DNA from: Escherichia coli
Lineage (GTDB): Bacteria > Pseudomonadota > Gammaproteobacteria > Enterobacterales > Enterobacteriaceae
Direction: 5' to 3' (one strand)
Length of the DNA: 64,000 bases
Assembly: GCF_013315695.1 (NCBI RefSeq)
Contig: NZ_CP054353.1
The position numbers and the translations under genes are program-made. Below are positions 2,493-42,286 of this stretch, piece after piece. Position 1 is the first letter of the stretch. Each line of letters begins with the position of its first letter. Under the pieces are notes generated by a model, which did no database searches, was not told the DNA's origin, and was given only the letters and a program-made list of their open reading frames with translations.

Positions 2493-4084
<1,592 letters not shown>

Positions 4085-36116: not shown

Positions 36117-36875
36117 ATGAGCCAAATTTTACTGCAACCTGCTAACGCGATGATTACGCTGGAAAACGTCAATAAATGGTATGGGCAATTCCATGTTTTG
36201 AAAAATATAAATTTAACCGTGCAACCGGGCGAACGGATCGTTCTGTGTGGCCCTTCTGGTTCCGGTAAATCGACAACCATTCGTTGTATTAATCATCTGG
36301 AAGAACACCAACAGGGACGGATCGTGGTAGATGGCATCGAGCTTAACGAAGATATTCGCAATATTGAGCGCGTCAGGCAGGAAGTGGGAATGGTCTTTCA
36401 GCATTTCAATCTCTTCCCTCATCTGACCGTTCTACAGAACTGTACCCTGGCACCGATTTGGGTACGCAAGATGCCTAAGAAAGAGGCTGAAGATCTGGCG
36501 TTGCATTACCTTGAGCGGGTGAGAATTGCCGAACATGCCCAGAAGTTTCCCGGACAGATTTCTGGTGGTCAGCAGCAACGCGTTGCCATAGCACGTTCAC
36601 TTTGTATGAAACCAAAGATCATGCTGTTTGACGAACCTACGTCTGCGCTCGATCCGGAGATGGTGAAAGAAGTGCTGGATACAATGATTGGGCTGGCGCA
36701 GTCAGGTATGACAATGTTGTGCGTAACGCACGAGATGGGGTTTGCGCGAACCGTCGCTGACAGGGTGATTTTTATGGATCGTGGGGAGATAGTGGAACAA
36801 GCTGCACCGGATGAGTTTTTTGCGCATCCTAAGTCAGAGCGTACGAGGGCATTTTTATCGCAGGTGATCCATTAA
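36117..36875 (+). CDS. yhdZ: ABC amino-acid transporter ATP-binding protein
   Basis: 252 aa with Walker [10 protein letters not shown], signature ISGGQQQR and Walker [12 protein letters not shown]. Confidence 0.93.
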
Positions 36876-36889
36876 TTGAATGTTAGTTC

Positions 36890-36932
36890 GAAAAGCAAAA
36901 AGGCCATCCTTTCGGATGGCCTTTCGCTTGAT
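36890..36932 (-). terminator. rrnD operon terminator (also positioned to terminate yhdZ on the other strand)
   Basis: ggccatcc tttc ggatggcc perfect hairpin flanked by A/T runs, immediately downstream of the distal 5S gene. Confidence 0.7.
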
Positions 36933-36935
36933 TTG

Positions 36936-37055
36936 ATGTCTGGCAGTTCCCTACTCTCGCATGGGGAGACCCCACACTACCATCGGCGCTACGGCGTTTC
37001 ACTTCTGAGTTCGGCATGGGGTCAGGTGGGACCACCGCGCTACTGCCGCCAGACA
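36936..37055 (-). rRNA. rrfF: 5S ribosomal RNA, distal copy of rrnD
   Basis: 120-nt reverse-complement match to E. coli 5S rRNA (…ccatgccgaactcagaagtgaaacgccgtagcgccgatggtagtgtggggtctccccatgcgagagtagggaactgccag…). Confidence 0.9.
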
Positions 37056-37092
37056 AATTCTTTTCTAATCTGCCGAACTTTAACCTAAAAAG

Positions 37093-37168
37093 TGGTGCTG
37101 ATACCCAGAGTCGAACTGGGGACCTCACCCTTACCAAGGGTGCGCTCTACCAACTGAGCCATATCAGC
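37093..37168 (-). tRNA. thrV: tRNA-Thr
   Basis: Reverse complement reads gctgatatggctcagttggtagagcgcacccttggtaagggtgaggtccccagttcgactctgggtatcagcacca (anticodon GGT, CCA end encoded). Confidence 0.9.
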
Positions 37169-37180
37169 ACGCTAAATTTG

Positions 37181-37300
37181 ATGCCTGGCAGTTCCCTACT
37201 CTCGCATGGGGAGACCCCACACTACCATCGGCGCTACGGCGTTTCACTTCTGAGTTCGGCATGGGGTCAGGTGGGACCACCGCGCTAAGGCCGCCAGGCA
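37181..37300 (-). rRNA. rrfD: 5S ribosomal RNA, proximal copy of rrnD
   Basis: Second 120-nt 5S copy; reverse complement begins tgcctggcggcc and ends ctgccaggcat. Confidence 0.92.
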
Positions 37301-37394
37301 AATTCTGTTTATCAGACCACTTCTGCGTTCTGATTTAATCTGTTATCAAGCTTACTTATCGATGTCTCTTCCGCCAAAACATCTTCGGCGTTGT

Positions 37395-40298
<2,904 letters not shown>

Positions 40299-40481
40299 TC
40301 ACAACCCGAAGATGTTTCTTTCGACTCATCATCGTGTTGCGAAAATTTGAGAGACTCACGAACAACTTTCGTTGTTCAGTGTTTCAATTTTCAGCTTGAT
40401 CCAGATTTTTAAAGAGCAAAACTTCGCAGTGAACCTTTGCAGGTACACTCTGAAGTATTTTTTATTTAATCACTACAGAGA

Positions 40482-40557
40482 TGGTGGAGCTATGCGGGAT
40501 CGAACCGCAGACCTCCTGCGTGCAAAGCAGGCGCTCTCCCAGCTGAGCTATAGCCCC
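40482..40557 (-). tRNA. alaU: tRNA-Ala (UGC) in the 16S-23S spacer
   Basis: Reverse complement reads ggggctatagctcagctgggagagcgcctgctttgcacgcaggaggtctgcggttcgatcccgcatagctccacca. Confidence 0.92.

Positions 40558-40599: not shown

Positions 40600-40676
<77 letters not shown>

Positions 40677-40744: not shown

Positions 40745-42286
<1,542 letters not shown>

What the first reader, a model, noticed from the sequence alone, without database searches (positions are those of the whole stretch)
36936..37055. The two 5S genes of rrnD differ, including a compensatory pair change in helix I
Relative to the proximal copy (37181..37300), the distal 5S copy carries C to U at RNA position 3 and the matching G to A at its pairing partner near the 3' end (RNA 5' end UGUCUGG..., 3' end ...CCAGACAU), preserving the terminal helix as a U-A pair. 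The two copies also differ in the GGC(A/C)(G/U)UAGC segment near the 5' end. The covariation indicates both copies are under structural selection.
Basis: seen in the sequence. Interest (0 to 1): 0.22.

Follow-up and report, generated by a model that had tools for sequence, protein, structure and literature searches.

The report
Known variant 5S gene of rrnD
The extra 5S ribosomal RNA gene at the end of E. coli's rrnD operon carries two matched base changes that keep its terminal helix paired; this is real, but the allele is identical to K-12's rrfF and is found in nearly all E. coli, so it is ordinary.

Summary
Window 36936-37055 (-) and 37181-37300 (-) are two full-length 5S rRNA genes separated by tRNA-Thr(GGU), at the end of a 16S-Ile-Ala-23S-5S-Thr-5S operon next to yhdZ. 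This is E. coli rrnD.

The copies differ at four positions: C3U, C12A, U13G and G117A. Positions 3 and 117 pair in helix I, so C-G becomes U-A.

It is not an artefact. The distal copy is base-for-base identical to K-12 rrfF. With its upstream spacer, it is at least 99% identical in 5,248 of 5,463 E. coli records.

Across 121 post-tRNA-Thr 5S genes from Enterobacterales species, pair 3:117 is C-G in 69, U-A in 50, U·G in 2, and never mismatched. Where both copies could be read (37 loci), the proximal copy is always C-G.

Positions 12-13 lie in the hypervariable loop A.

The best explanation is an old, nearly neutral compensated substitution reached through a G·U wobble. Selection for helix I pairing keeps it paired. 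It persists because it lies at the edge of the homology block, where gene conversion between rrn copies seldom reaches.

Novelty: already known. Interest: low.

The parts
36936..37055 (-). Distal 5S rRNA gene (rrfF), 120 nt, with U3, A12, G13 and A117
   Evidence: Rfam RF00001 at 90.2 bits. Identical to K-12 rrfF.
37053..37053 (-). RNA position 3 of the distal copy: U (C in the proximal copy at 37298)
   Evidence: Pairwise comparison. Pairs with position 117 in the covariance-model alignment.
36939..36939 (-). RNA position 117 of the distal copy: A (G in the proximal copy at 37184), partner of position 3 in helix I
37043..37044 (-). RNA positions 12-13 of the distal copy (A, G; the proximal copy has C, U), in the unpaired loop A
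   Evidence: Positions 12-14 take 10 different triplets among distal copies and 11 among proximal copies.
37181..37300 (-). Proximal 5S rRNA gene (rrfD), with C3, C12, U13 and G117
   Evidence: Rfam RF00001 at 93.2 bits. Identical to rrfA, rrfB, rrfC and rrfE of strain MS 21-1.
37093..37168 (-). tRNA-Thr(GGU) (thrV) between the two 5S genes
   Evidence: ARAGORN and Rfam tRNA
37056..37092 (-). 37-nt spacer between tRNA-Thr and the distal 5S. It ends in AAAGAAUU, a conserved A/U-rich 5' processing motif.
   Evidence: Positions -8..-1 are nearly invariant in 123 loci. Assignment as an RNase E site rests on prior knowledge of 9S RNA processing (PMC6202311 for the two RNase E cuts; the site sequences are from memory).
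36898..36925 (-). Intrinsic terminator hairpin (GGCCAUCC-GAAA-GGAUGGCC plus a U run) ending rrnD
   Evidence: Terminator scan. The same hairpin follows the distal 5S in several other genera.
37395..40298 (-). 23S rRNA gene of the same operon
   Evidence: Rfam RF02541
40482..40676 (-). Spacer tRNA-Ala(UGC) and tRNA-Ile(GAU)
   Evidence: ARAGORN
40745..42286 (-). 16S rRNA gene of the same operon
   Evidence: Rfam RF00177

Best explanation
The distal gene is rrfF, the eighth 5S rRNA gene of E. coli. It is an old tandem duplicate that lies after thrV at the end of rrnD, is transcribed with the operon, and is excised at conserved A/U-rich flanks.

Its helix I carries U3-A117 where the other 5S genes have C3-G117. 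This is a nearly neutral compensated substitution, most likely reached through a U3.G117 wobble intermediate, and kept as a pair because helix I must stay closed.

The difference persists while the rest of the gene stays identical because positions 3 and 117 lie 2-3 nt from the ends of the 120-nt homology block. Gene conversion from the other rrn operons homogenises the interior but seldom reaches these ends.

Positions 12-13 lie in loop A, which tolerates almost any base.

Shown here: the sequence facts, the pairing, the covariation, the population and species distribution, and the hybrids with donor markers. Inferred: the wobble route, selection as the reason mismatches are absent, the conversion-edge effect, and processing and use of the product.
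For: Identity and context.

Four differences, with 3 and 117 paired.

Not an artefact. The distal gene is identical to that of K-12 RV308 and MS 21-1. The 162-nt query (spacer, distal gene, CAAAT) is at least 99% identical in 5,248 of 5,463 records, and 100% in 24 of 30 evenly spaced rows.

Covariation. In 121 distal genes from 120 loci of species genomes, the pair is C-G 69, U-A 50, U.G 2, mismatch 0. On 53 distinct sequences it is CG 34, UA 17, UG 2, unpaired 0, with a covariation score of 0.063 against 0.041 shuffled (0 of 500 shuffles reach it) and at most 0.042 with the partner slid. RNAalifold predicts the same helix I on its own.

Copy specificity. In 37 loci with both copies, the proximal copy is C-G in all 37 and the distal copy is U-A in 24. 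Differences pile up at positions 3 and 117 (24 each) and at 12-14 (7, 7, 4). In MS 21-1, rrfA, rrfB, rrfC and rrfE all equal the proximal copy.

Concerted evolution. The hypervariable 12-14 triplet is identical within a genome in 25 of 37 loci, against 16% expected by chance.

Conversion makes hybrids. Thirty-one E. coli records have U3.G117 in the distal gene. None has an exact match with the window-type downstream flank. Fifteen of the 16 examined have the long rrnB-T1-like flank, and six of them carry donor-type markers downstream. The sixteenth is an unequal-crossover triplication.

Energetics on the reference fold: C-G -43.8, U-A -41.7, U.G -41.1, C.A -36.6 kcal/mol.

Conserved flanks: AAAGAAUU before the gene and CAA after it, in 110-123 of 123 loci.
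Against: No expression, processing or ribosome-incorporation data were examined, so use of the rrfF product is inferred.

E. coli polymorphism does not by itself show selection against mismatches. In the distal copy, U.G outnumbers C.A by 31 to 1, but this is confounded by longer homology on the 3' side. In the proximal copy, the hybrids are 1 U.G and 1 C.A.

Some U.G cases are laboratory strains whose reference genomes have A117 (BL21, TOP10, Origami, J53). They may be polishing or assembly errors.

Interior departures from the consensus are shared by both copies only 11 times, against 13 times in one copy only, so homogenisation is incomplete.

U-A outside the core Enterobacteriaceae (Hafnia, Dickeya undicola, Leminorella) requires either several origins or an older origin with repeated loss. 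No tree-based reconstruction was done.
Confidence: 0.85

Rival explanations
1. U3-A117 is a selectively maintained, copy-specific signature. The 5S gene after tRNA-Thr would need a weaker A-U pair near its end, for instance for maturation in its own precursor context, or it would encode a distinct 5S isoform with its own role.
For: The distal copy is U-A in 50 of 121 species-level genes, whereas the proximal copy is C-G in 37 of 37 loci. The state persists in both E. coli downstream alleles, including the T1 type, where position 117 sits inside long homology with other operons. U-A also occurs in Hafnia, Dickeya undicola and Leminorella, outside the core family. CFT073 and TUM2820 appear to keep only the distal-type 5S in rrnD.
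Against: Sixty-nine of 121 distal genes are C-G with the same conserved flanks, so U-A is not needed for a post-tRNA-Thr 5S. U.G variants exist in two species and in 31 E. coli records. The energy difference between U-A and C-G is only 2.1 kcal/mol out of about 44. The distribution mostly follows taxonomy, as simple inheritance predicts.
Confidence: 0.08
2. The distal copy is a decaying or unused duplicate, and the matched change is a coincidence.
For: It is the only divergent copy among the six 5S genes examined in strain MS 21-1. A compensated pair arises by chance in about 1% of four-substitution simulations. Some genomes appear to have lost one of the two genes.
Against: Positions 14-116, 103 of the 120, are identical to the proximal copy, and the Rfam score is 90.2 against 93.2. 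The allele is near fixation in E. coli. No mismatch occurs at 3:117 in 123 sequences, and a second covarying pair exists. The processing flanks and a terminator are conserved.
Confidence: 0.03
3. The differences are sequencing or assembly artefacts of a collapsed repeat.
For: Short tandem rRNA repeats are error-prone. Several public assemblies show suspicious variants here, such as BL21(DE3) CP081489 and laboratory strains with G117.
Against: The same four differences, or three in strains with G13, recur in independent complete genomes, including K-12. The 162-nt distal query is at least 99% identical in 5,248 of 5,463 records. The U-A state recurs in 50 other species' assemblies.
Confidence: 0.01

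Closest known systems
E. coli K-12 rrfF (second 5S gene of rrnD: rrlD-rrfD-thrV-rrfF)
   Same: The 120-nt sequence is identical (U3, A12, G13, A117). So are the 37-nt spacer after thrV, the gene order and the neighbouring yhdZ. That rrnD carries a second 5S gene with tRNA-Thr between the two is textbook (PMC7283268, PMC11883441, PMC4696680). To my recollection the sequence was first reported by Duester and Holmes, Nucleic Acids Res 1980, 8:3793. That paper is not held in the library, so this is cited from memory.
   Different: In this window the proximal partner has U13 where K-12 has G13. The operon ends in a single GGCCAUCC hairpin instead of K-12's rrnB-T1-like terminator, rrF sRNA and second terminator (PMC8144298).
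Bacterial 5S rRNA family (Rfam RF00001)
   Same: Both copies match end to end far above the gathering score and fit the family's helix I-V layout. The 3:117 pair is the outermost pair of the model's helix I.
   Different: Nothing structural. The distal copy scores 3 bits lower.
Compensatory base changes (covariation) in rRNA helices, via G.U intermediates
   Same: C-G and U-A alternate at one pair, with rare U.G and no C.A, across 123 sequences. A neighbouring pair alternates G-C and A-U.
   Different: Here the two states coexist as paralogues in one operon of one genome, not only between species.
Concerted evolution (gene conversion) among bacterial rrn operons
   Same: Five of the six 5S genes examined in MS 21-1 are identical. 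The hypervariable 12-14 triplet usually agrees within a genome. Hybrids carry donor markers from other operons.
   Different: The terminal pair of the distal copy escapes homogenisation in most Enterobacteriaceae. The conversion-edge explanation for this is inferred, not measured.
Classical 5S rRNA microheterogeneity of E. coli at positions 12/13
   Same: The window's proximal allele has U13 and K-12's has G13. In E. coli, rrfD alleles are C12-U13 in about 2,629 records, C12-G13 in about 2,118 and A12-G13 in about 265. From memory, G/U heterogeneity at position 13 was seen when strain MRE600 5S RNA was sequenced (Brownlee, Sanger and Barrell, 1967-68).
   Different: Those early reports concerned mixtures of RNA species, not assignment to genes.

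Membership tests
5S rRNA (Rfam RF00001) | Covariance-model score above the curated gathering threshold over the full model | tested here: met
   Distal 90.2 bits and proximal 93.2 bits against a threshold of 38, model positions 1-120 of 120.
5S rRNA (Rfam RF00001) | Closed helix I formed by the 5' and 3' ends | tested here: met
   Ten pairs, 1-10 with 110-119, are all standard in both copies. The distal copy has U3-A117.
5S rRNA (Rfam RF00001) | Located downstream of 23S in an rRNA operon and co-transcribed | tested here: met
   Gene order on the - strand, no promoter-like site between the genes, and a terminator only after the distal copy. Co-transcription itself is inferred.
5S rRNA (Rfam RF00001) | Matured and incorporated into the 50S subunit | not testable with these tools
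   Only indirect: the flanks AAAGAAUU and CAA are conserved in 110-123 of 123 loci.
E. coli rrnD / rrfF allele | Order 16S, tRNA-Ile, tRNA-Ala, 23S, 5S, tRNA-Thr(GGU), 5S, next to yhdZ | tested here: met
E. coli rrnD / rrfF allele | Sequence identity to the reference rrfF | tested here: met
   120 of 120 identical to K-12 RV308. The 162-nt query with its flanks is 100% identical in, for example, K-12 NEB 5-alpha and T7 Express.
Compensatory (covarying) base pair | The two changed positions pair with each other in the accepted structure | tested here: met
   Rfam alignment, the reference E. coli structure and an independent RNAalifold prediction.
Compensatory (covarying) base pair | Both states are standard pairs, and mismatched combinations are absent or rare in related sequences | tested here: met
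   CG 69, UA 52, UG 2, unpaired 0 of 123. In E. coli, 31 distal U.G records and 1 distal C.A record among 5,463.
Compensatory (covarying) base pair | Excess over controls that keep column composition or relatedness | tested here: met
   Covariation score 0.063 against a shuffled mean of 0.041 (0 of 500 shuffles reach it). Slid partners score at most 0.042 and have 0-1 double-sided cells against 25. The shuffle control ignores phylogeny.
Compensatory (covarying) base pair | Single-sided (mismatch) variants are functionally worse | not testable with these tools
   Only a predicted 5-7 kcal/mol loss for C.A. The population asymmetry is confounded.

The most novel reading that the evidence does not exclude
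The U3-A117 pair is not just a tolerated variant. It is a selectively maintained mark of the 5S gene that follows tRNA-Thr throughout core Enterobacteriaceae. That would make rrfF a distinct 5S isoform, with its own maturation requirements or its own role (specialised ribosomes, or the 'surplus' 5S pool), held apart from the other seven copies despite ongoing gene conversion.
Probability: 0.07. Interest if true: 0.45.

Novelty: already known. Interest (0 to 1): 0.08.

Why it matters
It matters little in itself. The allele is the reference K-12 rrfF sequence, and that rrnD carries a second 5S gene is textbook knowledge.

It is a clean small example of two general rules. RNA helices evolve by compensated changes through wobble intermediates. 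Gene conversion homogenises repeated genes only where flanking homology allows it.

There are two practical points. The U3/A12/A117 signature is a natural tag for following rrnD-derived distal 5S rRNA. Public assemblies are not fully reliable at this tandem repeat.

Tried and rejected
1. Assembly artefact: rejected.

2. Decaying duplicate: rejected on conservation.

3. I tried to use E. coli polymorphism as a direct test of selection on the pair, by searching artificial hybrid sequences. The distal results were U.G in 31 records and C.A in 1. The proximal results were U.G in 1 and C.A in 1, with none in the U13 background. The distal asymmetry is confounded by the longer 3' homology in T1-type strains, and the proximal counts are too small. 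The test is inconclusive.

4. My first count of loci 'with both copies' (53) was inflated by a negative slice index that picked up the distal gene itself. The corrected count is 37. The apparent 'U.G in both copies' of Enterobacter mori was that bug.

5. The claim that interior species-specific changes are always shared by both copies did not survive the correction: 11 are shared and 13 are in one copy only.

6. Literature. Duester and Holmes 1980 (DOI lookup; title search) and Ammons et al. 1999 (PMC148226) are not held. No paper in the library discusses the rrfF base differences.

7. rrnG and rrnH of MS 21-1 were not located, so 6 of its 8 5S genes were compared.

8. RNAalifold's interior fold differs from the accepted 5S structure, because the interior is invariant. 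Only its helix I and helix IV were used.

Full report
**What is there.** The window's - strand carries a complete rRNA operon:
- 16S (40745-42286)
- tRNA-Ile(GAU) (40600-40676)
- tRNA-Ala(UGC) (40482-40557)
- 23S (37395-40298)
- 5S (37181-37300)
- tRNA-Thr(GGU) (37093-37168)
- a second 5S (36936-37055)

Both 5S genes match Rfam RF00001 end to end, at 93.2 and 90.2 bits against a gathering score of 38. A terminator hairpin follows at 36925-36898, and then the convergent yhdZ gene at 36117-36875. This gene order and this neighbour define E. coli rrnD. The 571-nt stretch 36850-37420 is 100% identical to E. coli strain MS 21-1, and 5,392 of 5,426 complete E. coli genomes hold most of it. These are the only two 5S genes in the window.

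**The observation.** A direct comparison gives exactly four differences, proximal to distal: C3U, C12A, U13G and G117A. In the covariance-model alignment, RNA position 3 pairs with 117, as the outermost pair of the model's helix I. The proximal copy has C-G there, and the distal copy has U-A, which is marked as a compensated pair. Four random substitutions would produce a double-sided change that keeps a standard pair in 1.15% of trials. The window alone is therefore suggestive, not conclusive.

**Not an artefact, and not new.** The distal gene is base-for-base identical to the second 5S gene of rrnD in K-12 (strain RV308) and in MS 21-1. A 162-nt query made of the thrV-5S spacer, the distal gene and CAAAT is at least 99% identical in 5,248 of 5,463 E. 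coli records. It is exactly identical in 24 of 30 rows taken evenly down the ranking, including K-12 NEB 5-alpha and T7 Express. The few variants I inspected differ elsewhere: U87A in O157:H7 and LH50-c, C35U in C325, or a spacer base. All keep U3 and A117. In MS 21-1, the 5S genes of rrnA, rrnB, rrnC and rrnE are all identical to the window's proximal copy, so the distal gene is the single divergent copy among the six examined. Papers in the library treat the second 5S gene of rrnD, with tRNA-Thr between the two, as standard knowledge (PMC7283268, PMC11883441, PMC4696680). To my recollection the original sequence paper is Duester and Holmes 1980, which could not be retrieved.

**Comparative test of the pairing.** I scanned one genome per species for the 3' end of this tRNA-Thr followed within 25-55 nt by the 5S start. 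Results for the 121 post-tRNA-Thr 5S genes:

| Pair | States |
|---|---|
| 3:117 | C-G 69, U-A 50, U.G 2 (Citrobacter sp. FP75, Enterobacter mori), never a mismatch |
| 2:118 | G-C, or A-U in 9 (Yersinia, Pectobacterium, Brenneria, Serratia marcescens) |

- On the accepted E. coli 5S structure, with identical rows merged (53 distinct sequences), pair 3:117 is CG 34, UA 17, UG 2, unpaired 0.
- The covariation score is 0.063 against a shuffled mean of 0.041 (0 of 500 shuffles reach it) and at most 0.042 when partners are slid.
- RNAalifold recovers helix I, including 3:117, without being told the structure.
- The U-A state belongs to Escherichia, Salmonella, Citrobacter, Enterobacter, Lelliottia, Kosakonia, Pluralibacter and relatives. 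Outliers with U-A are Hafnia, Dickeya undicola and Leminorella.
- Pantoea, Erwinia, Rahnella, Tatumella, Buttiauxella and others have C-G.

**Copy specificity and concerted evolution.** In the 37 loci where both genes are complete, the proximal copy is C-G in all 37, while the distal copy is U-A in 24. Differences between the two copies concentrate at positions 3 and 117 (24 loci each) and at 12-14 (7, 7 and 4) (this corrects). Positions 12-14 are hypervariable between species, with 10-11 different triplets. Yet the triplet is the same in both copies of a genome in 25 of 37 loci, against 16% expected if they were independent. The two copies therefore exchange sequence, or are jointly replaced, and the outermost pair usually stays behind.

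**How hybrids arise.** Artificial queries show that 31 E. coli records carry U3.G117 in the distal gene and one carries C3.A117.
- None of the U.G cases has an exact match when the window-type downstream flank is attached.
- Nine match exactly with the K-12 flank.
- Six more that I fetched all have the long rrnB-T1-like flank, with several donor-type markers downstream (G11, A25, C40, G67, T74). This is what a conversion tract, or a mis-assembly, coming from another operon's 5S-terminator region would leave.
- One strain, S103EC, has 5S-Thr-5S-Thr-5S with a hybrid middle copy, the product of unequal crossing-over.
- In the proximal gene, hybrids are very rare in both directions: one U.G (O103 RM8385) and one C.A (ACN002).

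These data show that conversion happens and that it needs flanking homology. They do not by themselves prove selection against mismatches.

**Mechanism, and what is inferred.** Evaluated on the reference fold, the four combinations give -43.8 kcal/mol (C-G), -41.7 (U-A), -41.1 (U.G) and -36.6 (C.A). A C-to-U change at position 3 costs little, the later G-to-A at 117 costs nothing further, and the alternative route through C.A is expensive. The flanks of the distal gene are almost invariant where maturation occurs: AAAGAAUU before position 1 and CAA after position 120, in 110-123 of 123 loci. The proximal copy has the matching ACAGAAUU and CAA. RNase E is known to cut the 9S precursor twice to release pre-5S (PMC6202311). 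That these flanks are its sites is my recollection, not a test.

I conclude, at about 85% confidence, that rrfF is a functional 5S gene carrying an old, nearly neutral compensated substitution. Selection for a closed helix I keeps the two sites matched. Their position 2-3 nt from the ends of the homology block shields them from homogenisation.

**Rivals.**
- Copy-specific function for U-A (about 8%). This is not excluded, but 69 of 121 distal genes do without U-A, with the same flanks.
- Decaying duplicate (about 3%). Contradicted by the conservation data.
- Assembly artefact (about 1%). Contradicted by the independent genomes.

**Verdict.** It is already known, and interest is low.

Noticed in passing
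window 36856-36935 (-), compared with L001 and L123: This rrnD ends in a single terminator (GGCCAUCC-GAAA-GGAUGGCC) directly before yhdZ. K-12 and O157:H7 carry about 166 bp more: an rrnB-T1-like terminator, the rrF sRNA and a second terminator. Both alleles are common in E. coli, roughly 2,100-2,400 records against 3,100-3,300. The window-type hairpin also follows the distal 5S in E. whittamii, Citrobacter, Enterobacter, Hafnia and Dickeya, so it is probably the older allele.
   Followed up: partly
L135-L137 (E. coli MS 21-1: rrnC, rrnA, rrnB, rrnE): In this strain, rrnA, rrnB and rrnE each end in their own single terminator hairpin. None has the K-12 type T1-sRNA-T2 tail, so the rrA/rrB/rrF sRNA genes described for K-12 appear to be absent from this lineage.
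   Followed up: no
L130 (E. coli S103EC, NZ_CP076693.1) and L041 (Erwinia rhapontici): The tRNA-Thr-5S unit is tandemly amplified. S103EC has 5S-Thr-5S-Thr-5S with a U3..G117 hybrid middle copy. Erwinia rhapontici has two successive tRNA-Thr-5S units.
   Followed up: partly
L138 (CFT073, NC_004431.1) and L139 (TUM2820): rrnD has only one 5S gene and no thrV. That gene is the complete distal type (U3, A12, G13, A117), joined directly to the 23S-5S spacer. This is either a real deletion through the 8-nt AGAAUUUG microhomology or a collapsed assembly; it is unresolved.
   Followed up: partly
window 37288 (RNA position 13 of the proximal copy); E. coli collection: The proximal copy has U13 where K-12 has G13. 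Approximate rrfD allele counts in E. coli records are C12-U13 2,629, C12-G13 2,118 and A12-G13 265. In MS 21-1 the U13 form is shared by rrfA, rrfB, rrfC, rrfD and rrfE.
   Followed up: yes
L129 (BL21(DE3) assembly NZ_CP081489.1); records H89-H93: The 5' end of the proximal 5S is replaced by prophage tail-fibre sequence. Several laboratory-strain assemblies (BL21, Rosetta2, Origami2, TOP10) show only 6-7 5S places and G117 in the distal copy. Assembly or polishing errors at this repeat are likely.
   Followed up: no
window 40306-40414 (-): There is a strong Rfam hit to StyR-44 (123.9 bits; gathering score 54) in the spacer just upstream of the 23S gene.
   Followed up: no
L116 (CACSKA010000008.1, labelled Chryseobacterium sp. 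18061); L095 and L099 (labelled Enterobacter): The organism labels look wrong. L116 has an Enterobacteriaceae-type thrV-5S tail identical in pattern to Citrobacter sp. 18056 (L119). L095 and L099 have Pantoea/Erwinia-like spacer lengths and 5S states.
   Followed up: no
window 36883-37137 (-) and 37016-37288 (+): ORFs of 84 and 90 codons overlap the 5S and tRNA genes. They are almost certainly spurious.
   Followed up: no
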